Under the pieces are notes generated by a model, which saw only the letters and a list, made by a program, of their open reading frames with translations, was not told the origin of the DNA and ran no database searches. 64,000 nt of DNA. Origin: a phage. The translations under genes and the position numbers were made by a program. Positions 1-46,419 of the stretch are shown here, piece after piece. The stretch is taken from NCBI GenBank assembly GCA_024683775.1, contig GCA_024683775.1_4106.1. One strand, 5' to 3'. Position 1 is the first letter of the stretch. Every line of letters starts with the position of its first letter.

Positions 1-12
1 AAAAAAAAAAGC

Positions 13-41
13 TTGACAGGTAGATTTTAATTATATATAAT
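13..41 (+). promoter_or_regulatory. sigma70-type promoter (TTGACA, 17-bp spacer, TATAAT)
   Basis: TTGACA at 13-18, 17-nt spacer, TATAAT at 36-41, about 38 nt upstream of the ATG at 79. Confidence 0.55.
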
Positions 42-78
42 TATCACATACCCAAAATCACAAAAAAAGACAAATAAA

Positions 79-1188
79 ATGCCAAAAGTAAGTATCGACA
101 AAGAAAAATTCATTGAAGAGATGAACAACAAGTATGGAACATATGGTGAATTTGATTTCAGCACTTTAGTATTCAAAGCAAGTAAGACAACAGTTAAATG
201 TAATAAATGCGGAAAAGAAAATACTAAACCTGCACTACGTCACATTTCATGTACATGTGCTTCATGTTATTCAAACATGTCACAGCGTTCGAACAACGAA
301 AAATTTATCAGTACTGTAGAAACTAAATTTGGAAAAGATAAATTCAAATTTGATAAACTAAATTACACTAATGCTATATCAAAAGTAACAATTTTCTGCA
401 CAGATGAAGAGCATAATGATTACTTTGAAATTACACCAAACAAATTTCTTACTGGTAAGGGTTGTCCTGTATGTAATAAAAATGAAGCATACAGTACTGA
501 AGAATTCGTAGAAAAAGTAAAAGAAAATTATGGAAATGACAAATTTGACTTCACGAATACAATATACATTAATCAAAAGAGTAAAGTTGTTGTATACTGT
601 AACGATGGATGTCACTTTTGGGAAGTAGACCCAAAAACTCTATTAGTTGGAAAAACAGGATGTGGTAAATGCTCAGGGAAAGGTGGTCGAAGTAACGATG
701 AATTCATTTTTGAAGCAAAACGTATTCATGGTGATAAGTATGACTATAGCACTGTTGATTATGTTAGTAGTTTAATTTCAATTGACATCAGATGCCCTAC
801 TCATGGAGTATTTAAACAATCACCAAAATCACACATTTTTGGTCGCGGATGTCCTCGTTGTGGAAAGTACGGATATCAATCATCTAAACCTGGATATTTC
901 TATGTTCAGAAACTAACTAACAAAGATAAGACTGTATACAAATATGGAATTACTGGTGATATGAAGAGACGATTACATGAACAAAGTCGTGACTCTGAAT
1001 TTGAACATGAAGTACTCGTCGAACGTTACTTTGAAGATGGTCATAAACCATTAGTACTGGAAAAGTTTTTGAAACAATATATTGATAGTGGTGTTGTAAG
1101 TACTGAAGAGTTACCATCAGGATTTACTGAAACTTTTGATGCTAAGTATCTTGAAAGTGTTTTGGAAATCGTAAATACTTTTAAGTAA
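79..1188 (+). CDS. Zn-ribbon tandem-repeat protein with C-terminal T5orf172 (GIY-YIG-like) domain
   Basis: Four ~50-aa repeats each with K(Y/F)G.DKFDF and paired CxxC motifs; C-terminus YKYGITGDMKRRLHEQ resembles the T5orf172/MUG113 core. Confidence 0.55.
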   Translation: MPKVSIDKEKFIEEMNNKYGTYGEFDFSTLVFKASKTTVKCNKCGKENTKPALRHISCTCASCYSNMSQRSNNEKFISTVETKFGKDKFKFDKLNYTNAISKVTIFCTDEEHNDYFEITPNKFLTGKGCPVCNKNEAYSTEEFVEKVKENYGNDKFDFTNTIYINQKSKVVVYCNDGCHFWEVDPKTLLVGKTGCGKCSGKGGRSNDEFIFEAKRIHGDKYDYSTVDYVSSLISIDIRCPTHGVFKQSPKSHIFGRGCPRCGKYGYQSSKPGYFYVQKLTNKDKTVYKYGITGDMKRRLHEQSRDSEFEHEVLVERYFEDGHKPLVLEKFLKQYIDSGVVSTEELPSGFTETFDAKYLESVLEIVNTFK

Positions 1189-1211
1189 ACAACCATAAGG
1201 AGTTGACACGG

Positions 1212-1562
1212 ATGTTAACTGTATACATTTTTAAGAAAGAAGAGTACTTAAAGAGTCAGTACTCAAAAATTGAGATTAACGTTCCATACGGGACTTTAGT
1301 TGGTTATGATGAAGCTAGTGAAACTTTGTATTATAATGATGATAGACTGGACTATAGTATTGATTCATTTATTGAAGACATACTTGATAGTAACACTGAA
1401 GATATGTTATATGAAGAATACTTAGATAAGTACAAAGAACGTATGTCAAAGTTACATGCTGATGCTCCAGTACTGAACATTTCAAAAACTCCTTCTGAAT
1501 TCGAGCCACAAAACCCATTCCAACGCCTAATTGATGCTGGGGTAAATTTCCGAATTACTTGA
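1212..1562 (+). CDS. hypothetical protein
   Basis: ORF with AAGGAG 9 nt upstream of ATG 1212 (track start 1203 is TTG). Confidence 0.45.
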   Translation: MLTVYIFKKEEYLKSQYSKIEINVPYGTLVGYDEASETLYYNDDRLDYSIDSFIEDILDSNTEDMLYEEYLDKYKERMSKLHADAPVLNISKTPSEFEPQNPFQRLIDAGVNFRIT

Positions 1563-1601
1563 TTAATAAATATCTTCATATTACTGATGGAGATATTTTC
1601 T

Positions 1602-1910
1602 ATGTCACAGATATGTTATGTTATAGTAAATGATGCGTGGCCTGATTATGTTAAGATAGGATTTACCAGTAAATCTGAAATGACAGAACGTTTAAGGACA
1701 TATCAAACTGCTACACCTTTTAGAGATTTTGTGGTATACCATGAAGTACACTTTGAAGATGCACGTTTAGCAGAGAAAGAAATTCACAAAAGACTAAAAC
1801 AAATGAACGCAGTAAGGCAACCTAACACCGAGTGGTTCAAGATGCCTAAGAAGATAGCAGCGAACATCGTTGATTCTGTTCTTGACGATATGGAAAACGA
1901 CTTGCTATAG
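1602..1910 (+). CDS. T5orf172 / GIY-YIG-like domain protein
   Basis: YVKIGFTSKSEMTERLRTY motif; GGAG 9 nt upstream of ATG 1602. Confidence 0.5.
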   Translation: MSQICYVIVNDAWPDYVKIGFTSKSEMTERLRTYQTATPFRDFVVYHEVHFEDARLAEKEIHKRLKQMNAVRQPNTEWFKMPKKIAANIVDSVLDDMENDLL

Positions 1911-1951: not shown

Positions 1952-3580
1952 ATGAGCATAAGTTTTAATAACCCACTGGATACTATGACTAGTACTGGTG
2001 CTAATGGATCTTTAGAACTAATAGTGCTTGGTGGTACACCAACTAATCCAAGACCTATTCGTTTTAATTCATCTTCTGTCATTTTACCAGTACAGGCATT
2101 GCCAGCAGGTGAGCAAGGTGCTATGGTATTTGATAGAAATGAGTTGGTGTTAAAATACCACAACGGGACAAGTTGGATTGCAGTATACGATACTGATACA
2201 ATTCTTGAACCAATCCGTATTTCACTCGATGAAGTGAACCGTAAACTGAATTTAAAAGTTGAAACAGTAACATATAGTAGTAGTGCTGTTCCAAGTGCGA
2301 GCATTAGTGGTACGAATTTAAATATCGTATTCCCTATTCCATCAAGTAGCGGTACTGGCCCAACAGGTCTTTATACTTCAATGAAGCCTGGTGCAATTAC
2401 CCAGTACTCATTGACTTCTGGACAAACTGTTGCTAGTATTCGTGAACAGATGTCTGGAGTAACCAATGGTCAAAGTGGTCGTAATGGTTCACAAGGTTCT
2501 CCGTGGAAAACATCTGATGGTTGGTGTTTTGCTGATGGAATGTGGTGGACATGGGATGGTGAAAATGGTACAATCACAAAACAAGTTCCAAATCTTAACC
2601 AAGAAGCATACTTGAAAGGTATTACCACATCAGGCGTAACTAAAACTGATAGTGTGATTGCAAGTAGTGCATCAATTAGTGGTACTGCGATATCAATTGA
2701 ACAACTTCCACCGCACTCATTTAGTTTCAGTGGAACTACTGGTGCTGCTGGTCGTCATAGTCATAGCCAAGCACTAAAAGGTATGGACAGAAGTGGTCTT
2801 AATGCGTTAACATCCAGTAACGACAACGGAATCCCAACTGTAATTAATAACATTAACGAAGCACCTAATCACGTGCATAGTTTCAGTGGTTCAACCAATA
2901 CCGTTGGTAGTGGACAAGCACATACCCACGGAATTAGCAATATTGACGTACCACACTTTAATGTGGCATACTTATATAACATTGCTGAGTCTAACGTTGC
3001 ATTGAGTGAAAAAGTTGCAAACACTCGTTATGTACTTAAAACTGGTGATACAATGTCTGGTTCATTGAGTATCGCAAACAGTGCAACAATTCGTTCGAAT
3101 GATACTTCATTAGTACTTTACTTCCGTAACGCGGCAGGAACTACTGAACGTGCAGCAATTTATCACAGTTCATCAACAAATACATTACGTTTGAGAAGTA
3201 ATGGTGGTTCTGAAGTTACAATTAACTCTTCTGGTGTACTTTATGCTCCATCAGTAACTGGTGCATCATTGTCTATTTCTGGAAACACAGCAACTGTTGC
3301 TAGTAAAAACATCGTCAGATCTATTAACGGTAACAACGCTGATGCAAGCGGTAACGTAACTTTAACACTGGGTGCTGTACAAGATGTTCGTTTAAGTAAA
3401 AGAACATCTACGCGAAGTGTTCCTGATTCTTCTTGGATCTATGCACCAGAAGGTGCTACGCTTGATGGGTTGTTTATTTCCGTAAATGGGAGTTCTGGTA
3501 CACACGTTGAAGGTTATAGTTGGAGATATACACAAAAATTAGTCAATGGTGTATGGACTAACGTAGTAGTGGAGTCTTAA
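1952..3580 (+). CDS. tail fibre protein
   Basis: Ser/Thr/Gly/Asn-rich 542-aa protein with HSHS, HVHS, HTHG His-x-His motifs and LKTGDTMSGSL motif typical of phage tail fibres. Confidence 0.6.
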   Translation: MSISFNNPLDTMTSTGANGSLELIVLGGTPTNPRPIRFNSSSVILPVQALPAGEQGAMVFDRNELVLKYHNGTSWIAVYDTDTILEPIRISLDEVNRKLNLKVETVTYSSSAVPSASISGTNLNIVFPIPSSSGTGPTGLYTSMKPGAITQYSLTSGQTVASIREQMSGVTNGQSGRNGSQGSPWKTSDGWCFADGMWWTWDGENGTITKQVPNLNQEAYLKGITTSGVTKTDSVIASSASISGTAISIEQLPPHSFSFSGTTGAAGRHSHSQALKGMDRSGLNALTSSNDNGIPTVINNINEAPNHVHSFSGSTNTVGSGQAHTHGISNIDVPHFNVAYLYNIAESNVALSEKVANTRYVLKTGDTMSGSLSIANSATIRSNDTSLVLYFRNAAGTTERAAIYHSSSTNTLRLRSNGGSEVTINSSGVLYAPSVTGASLSISGNTATVASKNIVRSINGNNADASGNVTLTLGAVQDVRLSKRTSTRSVPDSSWIYAPEGATLDGLFISVNGSSGTHVEGYSWRYTQKLVNGVWTNVVVES

Positions 3581-3581
3581 T

Positions 3582-4100
3582 ATGAAAACATATACACATT
3601 TCAAAAAATATATCCCAGTAGAAAAGAAACATGGAGATAATGTTCTTTATCTATTGTCAGATGAGGGTGTTGACTGGTATGATTGTCAAAACGAATTCAG
3701 ACAAGATACTTTAAAAGTTCAGTACTCTGACGATGGATATATTGCACAAGCATCATATGATGTAACATTGTTAGTACCGTATGGATACAGTGTTTCTGAG
3801 TTGGAGCATGATGGAGATGAAGATGAAGTAGTTGGTAAAATCTATGATGGAAGTAAAATTTCTGATTATGTTGAATCTACTGATGAAAAGATCAAACGTC
3901 TATCATCTGAGCACCAAGAATTAAGAACCGTAGCAATTAATGAGTTGAATAACATTAAGATGGCGATAGATCTTGAGGTAGCAACTGATTATGAAATAGA
4001 ACTGTTTCCTAAGTTGAAAGCATATGTTCTTGAGCTATCATCTCTAACAACATCTGAATTTAGTAAGAAGAAGTTTTCGTTCCCTGTTAAACCTGTTTAA
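3582..4100 (+). CDS. hypothetical protein, possible tail-fibre assembly/chaperone (by position only)
   Basis: 172-aa acidic ORF immediately downstream of the tail-fibre gene. Confidence 0.3.
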   Translation: MKTYTHFKKYIPVEKKHGDNVLYLLSDEGVDWYDCQNEFRQDTLKVQYSDDGYIAQASYDVTLLVPYGYSVSELEHDGDEDEVVGKIYDGSKISDYVESTDEKIKRLSSEHQELRTVAINELNNIKMAIDLEVATDYEIELFPKLKAYVLELSSLTTSEFSKKKFSFPVKPV

Positions 4101-4108
4101 AAGTTTTT

Positions 4109-4138
4109 TTGGAACAAAATCGTAAGTAGTGATACAAT
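4109..4138 (+). promoter_or_regulatory. promoter (TTGGAA, 18-bp spacer, TACAAT with TG extension)
   Basis: ttggaaCAAAatc box at -35 and tgaTACAAT; member of the GAGACAAAC-box promoter family. Confidence 0.45.
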
Positions 4139-46199: not shown

Positions 46200-46394
46200 A
46201 TGACTGACAAAACCTTTTATGATCGTATTATTGAAGACAAGGGTGTTTTCGATAAAGTTGTTTATGACTTAGAACTTATGATCAAAGACGCACCAAATCC
46301 ACGCGTGCGTACTCAAGCAGAGTTTGCTAAAACTTATCTAGTGCAAGTTCAAGCAATCTGTGAAGCAATTAAAAAACATAATGATAGTGCTTGA
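46200..46394 (+). CDS. hypothetical small protein
   Basis: 64-aa ORF. Confidence 0.35.
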   Translation: MTDKTFYDRIIEDKGVFDKVVYDLELMIKDAPNPRVRTQAEFAKTYLVQVQAICEAIKKHNDSA

Positions 46395-46419
46395 CAGAAC
46401 ATTAGTTCTTAACTATAAT
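46391..46419 (+). promoter_or_regulatory. consensus sigma70 promoter (TTGACA, 17-bp spacer, TATAAT)
   Basis: TTGACA at 46391-46396, TATAAT at 46414-46419, about 45 nt upstream of the IF3-like ATG. Confidence 0.6.

What the first reader, a model, noticed from the sequence alone, without database searches (positions are those of the whole stretch)
13..1910. Zn-ribbon repeat protein fused to a T5orf172 domain, plus a second stand-alone T5orf172 gene
The 369-aa product has four tandem ~50-aa modules, each with a K(Y/F)G.DKFDF motif and two CxxC pairs, followed by a T5orf172 (GIY-YIG-like) domain. It is driven by a consensus sigma70 promoter. A second, shorter T5orf172 protein lies 400 bp downstream. 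The architecture suggests a sequence-specific DNA- or RNA-binding array attached to a nuclease-like domain, possibly a homing-type or host-nucleic-acid-targeting enzyme. I do not recognise this domain combination.
Basis: partly seen in the sequence, partly recalled or inferred. Interest (0 to 1): 0.5.

Follow-up and report, generated by a model that had tools for sequence, protein, structure and literature searches.

The report
Homing endonuclease gene beside capsid gene
The 369-aa gene is a selfish, optional "homing endonuclease" cassette (four zinc-finger DNA-reading modules plus a T5orf172/GIY-YIG-type cutter) lodged just after the major capsid gene of a jumbo E. coli phage; this gene type was described in 2023, so it is an ordinary though clear example.

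Summary
ORF A (79..1188, 369 aa) has four tandem ~60-aa zinc modules and a C-terminal T5orf172/GIY-YIG-like domain, behind a perfect sigma70 promoter. ORF C (1602..1910) is a clear stand-alone T5orf172 protein.

The domain combination is not new. Barth, Dunham & Seed 2023 (PMC10448857) define "T5orf172 homing endonuclease genes" with repeated CapR/DUF723/DUF4379 zinc-finger modules, often beside capsid genes. PHROG 681 "endonuclease" matches ORF A at 8.8e-75.

The window is an Asteriusvirus (121Q/PBECO4-like) jumbo coliphage. ORF A sits in a variable slot between the major capsid gene and ORF B. That slot is empty in 8 database records. In others it holds 3-, 4- or 5-module T5orf172 genes, a differently built one, or an unrelated endonuclease.

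All 11 genomes with the 4-module gene share a block of purely synonymous changes 58-105 nt before the capsid stop codon, in three different capsid-gene backgrounds. None of 12 other genomes has it. This is a co-conversion or target-recoding signature of homing.

ORF C is different: present in every relative, dN/dS about 0.04, so a fixed gene rather than a mobile one.

Verdict: new member of a known kind, low to moderate interest.

The parts
1..1211 (+). Optional cassette (promoter + ORF A + ribosome-binding site of ORF B). It is absent from empty-site relatives. Its left end lies a few bases upstream of window position 1, right after the capsid-gene terminator.
   Evidence: fEgEco12 is 99.9% identical from 1212 onward but has only 110 bp between the capsid stop and ORF B. 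The window is identical to contig L015 over 5188 nt, and window position 1 is 55 nt after the capsid stop.
13..41 (+). Perfect sigma70-type promoter TTGACA-17-TATAAT carried by the cassette.
   Evidence: 12/12 match. 2 such sites in the window against 0.05 expected. The hexamers are conserved in BF17 and A4, and other cassette types carry their own promoter-like sites.
79..1188 (+). ORF A, 369 aa: free-standing T5orf172-family homing endonuclease gene.
   Evidence: PHROG 681 'endonuclease' 8.8e-75. 281 homologues carrying DUF723/DUF4379. Presence/absence and allelic replacement in relatives.
97..270 (+). Zinc module 1 (residues 7-64; C41, C44, C58/C60, C63).
   Evidence: Module profile E 7.9e-12. 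AlphaFold2 model: helix plus beta-hairpin.
292..483 (+). Zinc module 2 (residues 72-135; C107, H112, C129, C132).
   Evidence: Module profile 9.4e-22. C107, C129 and C132 invariant in 35 homologues. Best Pfam hit CapR, 0.013, below cut-off.
493..684 (+). Zinc module 3 (residues 139-202; C174, C178/H179, C195, C198).
   Evidence: Module profile 3.9e-21. C174, C195 and C198 invariant. DUF4379 0.002-0.023, below cut-off.
685..873 (+). Zinc module 4 (residues 203-265; C239, H242, C258, C261). It is the most divergent module between alleles.
   Evidence: Module profile 2.8e-30. Cysteines invariant. DUF723 0.018, below cut-off. Only 57% identical to the BF17 module, against 97% for module 1.
874..1185 (+). 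T5orf172 / GIY-YIG-like nuclease domain (residues 266-369). Invariant Y275, G290-I291, R298, H310, E328, E351.
1212..1562 (+). ORF B, 116 aa, acidic, no known domain. It forms the right border of the cassette and is not part of it.
   Evidence: PHROG 15724, unknown function, 1.2e-52. Present in all relatives, and homology with empty-site genomes starts at its ATG.
1602..1910 (+). ORF C, 102 aa (107 from the ATG at 1587): stand-alone minimal T5orf172 domain. It is a fixed core gene, not mobile.
   Evidence: Pfam T5orf172 3e-13 and MUG113 1e-12. Present in all 37 relatives. dN/dS 0.03-0.05. 68-69% identical orthologues in Cronobacter phage GAP32 and Serratia phage BF.

Best explanation
ORF A is a free-standing homing endonuclease gene of the T5orf172 family. 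It sits in a hotspot directly downstream of the major capsid gene of an Asteriusvirus jumbo coliphage.

Proposed mechanism; none of these steps was shown here, each is inferred or taken from the literature:
1. Host RNA polymerase transcribes the cassette early, from its own consensus promoter.
2. The four zinc modules, arranged as 'beads on a string', together read a long DNA site.
3. The C-terminal GIY-YIG-type domain, joined by only about 10 residues, cuts nearby. It uses the invariant Arg298 and Glu351, which are aligned with the catalytic Arg/Glu class of GIY-YIG enzymes.
4. In a mixed infection the enzyme cuts the allele of a co-infecting relative that lacks this cassette.
5. Repair copies the cassette and neighbouring capsid-gene sequence from the carrier genome.

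My more specific and less certain claim is about the target. I place it in the 3' end of the capsid gene, about 58-105 nt before the stop codon, in the sequence version carried by empty-site and 3-module genomes. The carrier would be protected by about 11-15 synonymous substitutions there.

ORF C is not part of this element. It is a conserved stand-alone T5orf172 domain, most likely a long-domesticated nuclease domain whose partner or substrate is unknown.
For: Shown here:
- Family membership by profile: PHROG 681 at 8.8e-75 and 281 DUF723/DUF4379 homologues.
- Four modules with invariant zinc ligands, and invariant Y275, G290, R298, E328 and E351.
- The slot between the capsid gene and ORF B is 106-110 bp and empty in fEgEco12 and CMSTMSU, and also empty in PBECO4 and four Salmonella phages (8 records).
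- Elsewhere the slot holds cassettes that make it 1080, 1160, 1260, 1350 or 1769 bp long and encode different endonucleases.
- Every cassette begins right after the same terminator hairpin and carries its own promoter-like site.
- BF17 and the window's own contig have a capsid gene nearly identical to empty-site fEgEco12 over the first ~980 nt (0 and 1 differences). Then come 19-20 substitutions, all synonymous and including a TCT-to-AGT serine switch, in the last ~125 nt.
- A core of 11 of these substitutions is in 11/11 four-module genomes, spread over three capsid-gene backgrounds, and the haplotype is in 0/12 other genomes.
- The right flank shows 0-4 differences in 760 nt.
- The modules are mosaic between alleles: 97, 94, 78 and 57% identity to BF17 for modules 1-4, with 88% for the nuclease domain.

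From the literature:
- The architecture, and its location near capsid genes in 31% of neighbourhoods: PMC10448857.
- The T5orf172 protein Odn cuts DNA in vitro, and its E180A mutant is dead: PMC8263062.
- The zinc-finger cysteines of CapR are needed for DNA binding: PMC8096241.
Against: - No cleavage activity or target site has been measured.
- The Pfam matches of this particular protein are all below the curated cut-offs.
- The synonymous block could be a passively co-transferred stretch of a diverged donor rather than the target itself.
- WPEC5 carries a 3-module cassette in a capsid gene identical to the empty-site allele. Not every cassette type is therefore linked to recoding, and the real target could be the intergenic insertion point.
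- Ordinary homologous recombination between co-infecting phages could move the cassette without any cut.
Confidence: 0.8

Rival explanations
1. ORF A is a domesticated derivative of a homing endonuclease that now serves the phage. It could be a nuclease that excludes competing phages or satellites (like ICP1 Odn), or a zinc-finger regulator acting near the capsid operon (like CapR), rather than a self-propagating element.
For: Relatives of this family have been co-opted in exactly these ways (PMC8263062; PMC8096241). The gene lies next to the capsid operon. Its own strong promoter suggests regulated, useful expression. Cutting a competitor's capsid gene would also act as exclusion.
Against: The gene is dispensable: 8 records lack it. 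It is replaced by non-orthologous endonucleases in the same slot. It travels with a flanking haplotype across backgrounds. Those are the marks of a selfish element. The catalytic-type residues are retained, unlike in a pure repressor. Exclusion and homing are mechanistically the same cut, so this rival overlaps with the best explanation.
Confidence: 0.1
2. ORF A is an inactive relic: a cassette that once homed and has lost cleavage activity, and that persists and spreads only by ordinary recombination.
For: Homing endonuclease genes commonly decay after fixation. The Pfam scores of its domains are weak. The slot shows turnover between alleles.
Against: The reading frame is intact in all 11 four-module genomes and in more than 35 homologues. 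Zinc ligands and the Arg/Glu positions are invariant down to 33% overall identity. An identical protein is found on at least 10 independent contigs.
Confidence: 0.07
3. ORF A targets host DNA or RNA as a general nuclease for host takeover.
For: It has an early-type sigma70 promoter, and GIY-YIG enzymes include non-homing nucleases such as T4 EndoII.
Against: A four-module sequence-reading array argues for a rare, long site. The gene is optional within one genus infecting the same host. Its linkage to a capsid-gene haplotype points to a phage target. No RNA-binding family matched.
Confidence: 0.03

Closest known systems
T5orf172-family homing endonuclease genes with repeated CapR/DUF723/DUF4379 zinc-finger domains (Barth, Dunham & Seed 2023, PMC10448857; ICP1 gp174, gp165, gp121 and others)
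   Same: N-terminal array of related zinc-finger modules plus a C-terminal T5orf172 domain. Free-standing gene next to an essential (capsid) gene. Module-level shuffling between alleles. Different endonuclease classes share one hotspot.
   Different: The host lineage: Asteriusvirus jumbo coliphages were not found in that paper's held supplementary tables, one of which was truncated when stored, although GAP32 is present. This allele's domains are divergent enough to fall below Pfam cut-offs. Here a defined empty site and a cassette-linked synonymous haplotype in the capsid gene are documented.
ICP1 Odn (Gp88), the only T5orf172 protein I found with demonstrated nuclease activity (PMC8263062)
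   Same: C-terminal T5orf172 domain with a conserved catalytic Arg and Glu. Specificity is supplied by a separate N-terminal DNA-binding domain.
   Different: Odn uses a RepA_N domain captured from a satellite and acts as anti-satellite immunity. ORF A uses four zinc modules and behaves as an optional cassette.
PLE CapR (PMC8096241) and Pfam CapR homology domain PF21817
   Same: Same type of Cys-based zinc module, and the cysteines are required for DNA binding. Module 2 of ORF A has CapR as its best Pfam hit (0.013).
   Different: CapR is a single-module repressor without a nuclease. ORF A has four modules plus a nuclease.
Canonical GIY-YIG homing endonucleases (I-TevI; T4 SegA-G)
   Different: Domain order is reversed, with the nuclease C-terminal. 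The linker is very short. DNA binding is by zinc-module repeats rather than NUMOD/helix-turn-helix modules. Pfam GIY-YIG PF01541 is not matched by this protein.

Membership tests
T5orf172-family homing endonuclease gene (sensu Barth et al. 2023) | T5orf172 (GIY-YIG superfamily) nuclease domain | tested here: met
T5orf172-family homing endonuclease gene (sensu Barth et al. 2023) | Conserved catalytic Arg and Glu of the GIY-YIG core | tested here: met
   R298 and E351 (also Y275, G290, E328) are invariant in 35 homologues down to 33% identity. Their equivalence to the catalytic residues rests on alignment, not on an assay.
T5orf172-family homing endonuclease gene (sensu Barth et al. 2023) | One or more CapR/DUF723/DUF4379 zinc-finger DNA-binding modules | tested here: met
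   Four modules by profile. Precomputed DUF723/DUF4379 on nearly all 120 listed homologues. Significant DUF4379/DUF723/CapR hits on distant homologues. Single modules of this protein score only 0.013-0.023.
T5orf172-family homing endonuclease gene (sensu Barth et al. 2023) | Free-standing gene beside an essential gene, variably present among close relatives | tested here: met
   It lies directly after the major capsid gene. The slot is empty in 8 records and occupied by at least 5 other cassette types.
T5orf172-family homing endonuclease gene (sensu Barth et al. 2023) | Site-specific double-strand cleavage of the cassette-less allele, and super-Mendelian inheritance | not testable with these tools
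   Only indirect evidence: a cassette-linked synonymous haplotype in three capsid-gene backgrounds.
Canonical GIY-YIG homing endonucleases (I-TevI/Seg type) | Match to Pfam GIY-YIG PF01541, with an N-terminal catalytic domain | tested here: not met
   No PF01541 hit for ORF A at E<=1. Only relatives give weak hits (0.0054 and 0.46). The nuclease domain is C-terminal.
Canonical GIY-YIG homing endonucleases (I-TevI/Seg type) | NUMOD/IENR1 or helix-turn-helix DNA-binding modules | tested here: not met
   No such Pfam, PHROG or NCBIfam match. Zinc modules are present instead.
Pfam T5orf172 (PF10544), for ORF C | Score above the curated cut-off over the whole domain | tested here: met
   50.6 bits against 20, profile positions 2-99 of 101.
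Mobile homing endonuclease gene, for ORF C | A DNA-binding domain, and presence/absence polymorphism among relatives | tested here: not met
   It is only the 102-aa nuclease-type domain. It is present in all 37 related records and in all 12 sequences analysed (11 relatives plus the window), with dN/dS 0.03-0.05. Orthologues exist in other genera.

The most novel reading that the evidence does not exclude
The capsid-gene/ORF B slot of Asteriusvirus phages is a natural arena in which at least six endonuclease cassettes compete, each tied to its own set of synonymous changes in the last ~125 nt of the capsid gene. If the 48-nt block linked to the four-module gene really is its recognition site, then the natural allele series would give a direct read-out of how each ~60-aa zinc module reads DNA. 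That series comprises 3-, 4- and 5-module arrays, with module 4 only 57% identical between alleles. The result would be a modular recognition code for a compact new DNA-binding scaffold, with roughly 12 bp per module as my own guess.
Probability: 0.15. Interest if true: 0.55.

Novelty: new member of a known kind. Interest (0 to 1): 0.27.

Why it matters
It matters modestly.

- It adds jumbo coliphages of the 121Q/PBECO4 group to the lineages colonised by T5orf172 homing endonucleases.
- It corrects 'hypothetical protein', 'DUF4379 protein' and 'DNA polymerase II' annotations of this gene.
- It provides an unusually clean natural system. Near-identical genomes exist with an empty site, with different cassettes, and with a cassette-linked synonymous haplotype in an essential gene.
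- That makes two open questions directly testable: where T5orf172 enzymes cut, and how their zinc-module arrays specify a site.
- It also explains a local hotspot of synonymous variation and mosaicism in a gene (the major capsid protein) that is widely used for phage phylogeny.

Tried and rejected
- BLASTP of ORF A against itself found no internal repeat. The repeats are only visible with a profile.
- tblastn of ORF A and ORF C against the whole window found no further copies.
- A sequence search of the PDB gave only chance-level hits, such as nanobody and haemagglutinin.
- NCBIfam gave nothing.
- I considered that ORF A and ORF C form a two-gene system, and rejected it: ORF C is fixed in all relatives, including those with an empty slot.
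- I considered that the shared capsid-gene haplotype merely reflects common descent of the four-module genomes, and rejected it: it occurs in three distinct capsid backgrounds that also contain empty or other-cassette genomes.
- A literature search for this specific locus in papers on 121Q-like phages found no description of it.

Full report
**What is there**

The window is from an Asteriusvirus-type jumbo coliphage (121Q/PBECO4 group). The first 2 kb match 37 phage records, the best being Escherichia phage BF17 at 90.5%. The window is base-for-base identical over 5188 nt to a metagenomic contig (L015). On that contig, window position 1 lies 55 nt after the stop codon of the gp23-like major capsid gene.

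Four genes follow on the + strand:
- ORF A, 79..1188, 369 aa.
- ORF B, 116 aa. Its true start is ATG 1212; the ORF list's TTG at 1203 is upstream of the point where homology with relatives begins.
- ORF C, 1602..1910, 102 aa (or 107 aa from the ATG at 1587).
- A tail-fibre gene, 1952..3580.

**Checking the observation**

A profile seeded from module 4 alone recovers four tandem modules at residues 7-64, 72-135, 139-202 and 203-265 (E 8e-12 to 3e-30). A plain BLAST self-comparison sees nothing.

Each module has a helix carrying a (T/S)xE(E/K)FI motif, then an aromatic-Gly-x-D-K-(F/Y)-D-(F/Y) stretch, a beta-hairpin and a CxxC knuckle. Only module 1 has two Cys pairs. Modules 2-4 pair a C-x2-4-H/C with one CxxC.

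In 35 homologues down to 33% identity, nine cysteines are invariant: C107, C129, C132, C174, C195, C198, C239, C258 and C261.

The promoter at 13..41 is a perfect TTGACA-17-TATAAT. Such a site is expected 0.05 times in the window and occurs twice.

ORF C is an unambiguous T5orf172/MUG113 domain (3e-13 and 1e-12, above cut-offs).

The T5orf172 assignment for the C-terminus of ORF A is below Pfam's threshold when the protein is taken alone (17.6 bits against 20). Other evidence supports it:
- Three of nine C-terminal domains of the same family (two database homologues and the SHEFM2K slot protein) pass both the T5orf172 and MUG113 cut-offs, and one more passes MUG113 only.
- PHROG 681 'endonuclease' covers ORF A residues 24-368 at 8.8e-75 and also hits ORF C.
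- Y275, G290-I291, R298, E328 and E351 are invariant. By alignment, R298 and E351 are the catalytic-type Arg and Glu.

**What it is**

The decisive evidence is comparative. In every relative the gene order is capsid protease, scaffold, major capsid gene, [slot], ORF B, ORF C, tail fibre.

The slot between the capsid stop and the ORF B start codon has these states:

| Slot length | Content | Genomes |
|---|---|---|
| 106-110 bp | empty | fEgEco12, CMSTMSU |
| not measured | empty | PBECO4, four Salmonella SD phages (8 empty records in all) |
| ~1080 bp | 3-module + T5orf172 gene | WPEC5, slurp01 |
| not measured | variant 3-module + T5orf172 gene | EC.P1 |
| ~1160 bp | differently built zinc protein + T5orf172 | SHEFM2K, TH47, JNE01 |
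| ~1260 bp | the 4-module gene | window, BF17, 121Q, A4, WPEC3, Turkey3, JP4, UB, four contigs |
| 1350 bp | 5-module version | Turkey5 |
| 1769 bp | unrelated 532-aa endonuclease-like protein | ph0011 |

fEgEco12 is 99.9% identical to the window from position 1212 onward, so the insertion polymorphism is clean. Every cassette starts right after the same capsid terminator hairpin (AGGGACTCTTCGGAGTCCC followed by a T-run). Each brings its own promoter-like site.

**Signature of homing**

The capsid genes of BF17 and of the window's own contig are nearly identical to that of empty-site fEgEco12 over the first ~980 nt (0 and 1 differences). They then differ at 19-20 positions within the last ~125 nt. 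All of these changes are synonymous, and they include a TCT-to-AGT serine switch that needs two base changes.

A core of 11 of these changes lies 58-105 nt before the stop codon. It is present in all 11 four-module genomes examined, and the haplotype is in none of the 12 others.

The 11 carriers fall into three different capsid-gene backgrounds (fEgEco12-like, PBECO4-like, A4). The first two backgrounds also include empty-site or other-cassette genomes. So the block travels with the cassette, not with the genome.

The inner end of the block varies between genomes, as conversion tracts do. Other cassette types have their own synonymous clusters in the same stretch. The right flank (ORF B and ORF C) shows only 0-4 differences in 760 nt and no cluster.

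Within the four-module class, the modules themselves are mosaic. Identity to BF17 is 97, 94, 78 and 57% for modules 1-4, and 88% for the nuclease domain.

**Mechanism**

Shown here: the architecture, the conservation of putative ligands and catalytic-type residues, the optional presence of the gene, replacement by other cassettes, and the linked flanking haplotype.

Taken from the literature:
- A T5orf172 protein (Odn) cuts DNA in vitro and is killed by a Glu-to-Ala change (PMC8263062).
- The zinc-finger cysteines of the related CapR are required for DNA binding (PMC8096241).

Inferred:
- The four modules jointly read a long site, and the nuclease domain cuts nearby.
- The target is the cassette-less allele of a co-infecting relative.
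- Repair copies the cassette plus adjacent capsid sequence.

I place the target in the recoded 48-nt stretch of the capsid gene with about 45% confidence. The main alternative is the intergenic insertion point, because WPEC5 carries a 3-module cassette next to an unrecoded capsid allele.

**Comparison with what is known**

Barth, Dunham & Seed 2023 (PMC10448857) describe exactly this class:
- 87% of 229 T5orf172 homing endonuclease genes carry CapR, DUF723 or DUF4379 zinc-finger domains.
- These domains are often repeated, 'beads on a string'.
- Domains are shuffled between genes.
- 31% of gene neighbourhoods contain a capsid gene.
- Different endonuclease classes share hotspots.

More distant homologues combine the same modules with a DUF559 (Vsr-like) nuclease. 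PHROG 559, 'HNH endonuclease', shares the repeats. This confirms that the array is a portable DNA-targeting unit.

RefSeq already calls the 121Q orthologue 'endonuclease'. I found no paper that describes this particular slot.

The finding is therefore a new member of a known kind.

**ORF C**

ORF C is a different matter. It is just the ~100-aa T5orf172 domain and keeps the family motifs (CYVI, KIGFT, ERLR, AEKEIH, TEWF).

- It is present in all 37 relatives, including those with empty slots.
- It is 82-100% identical at the protein level, with dN/dS 0.03-0.05 at saturated dS.
- It has 68-69% identical orthologues in Cronobacter phage GAP32 and Serratia phage BF.
- More distant relatives in T5-like phages are the namesakes of the family.

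So it is a fixed, functional gene, probably an old domesticated nuclease domain. Its substrate and any targeting partner are unknown. It is always preceded by the acidic ORF B.

**Verdict**

The claimed novelty of the domain combination does not hold. Interest is low to moderate. The main value is a clean natural system for finding the target and the recognition rules of T5orf172 zinc-module endonucleases.

Noticed in passing
window 3364-4124: The 3' end of the tail-fibre gene and the whole 172-aa tail-fibre assembly gene are replaced in otherwise 97-99% identical genomes (L013, L014, WPEC5). Those genomes have a 569-570-aa fibre and no separate assembly gene. This is a host-range cassette swap about 1.5 kb downstream of ORF C.
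   Followed up: partly
window 1212-1562 (ORF B): ORF B is an acidic 116-aa protein with no domain match (PHROG 15724, unknown function). It always lies directly upstream of the stand-alone T5orf172 gene ORF C. A PHROG-based annotation note in one relative record suggests the same pairing in Cronobacter phage GAP32. It could be a partner or inhibitor of ORF C.
   Followed up: no
L001:3833-3955 and equivalents (just upstream of window position 1): The last ~57 nt of the major capsid gene and the terminator hairpin are almost invariant, even at synonymous sites, across genomes that differ by 6-8% elsewhere in the gene. The 70 nt just before them are saturated with synonymous changes. This could reflect a nucleotide-level constraint or repeated homogenisation by conversion.
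   Followed up: partly
L007:1876-3474 (phage ph0011): In ph0011 the same slot holds an unrelated 532-aa protein. It has short repeated 'KYG(V/T)..' motifs and a region that looks restriction-endonuclease-like by eye. I read it as a different class of homing endonuclease in the same hotspot, but I did not run it through domain searches.
   Followed up: no
window ~1910-1980 (end of ORF C to start of the tail-fibre gene): In the right-flank alignment, the last ~70 columns have only 1-2 mismatches per 50 nt in all diverged genomes except A4 (8 and 11), against ~10 per 50 nt in the preceding 700 nt. This conserved junction may serve as a recombination anchor for tail-fibre exchange.
   Followed up: no
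window 46391-46419: This is the only other perfect TTGACA-17-TATAAT site in the 64 kb window. I did not examine its context.
   Followed up: no
window 685-873 (module 4 of ORF A): Module 4 of this allele is only 49-67% identical to module 4 of every other allele examined, while modules 1-2 are 94-97% identical to BF17. DNA similarity to the 3-module alleles resumes at about 802-841. This suggests a recombination joint inside the module.
   Followed up: partly
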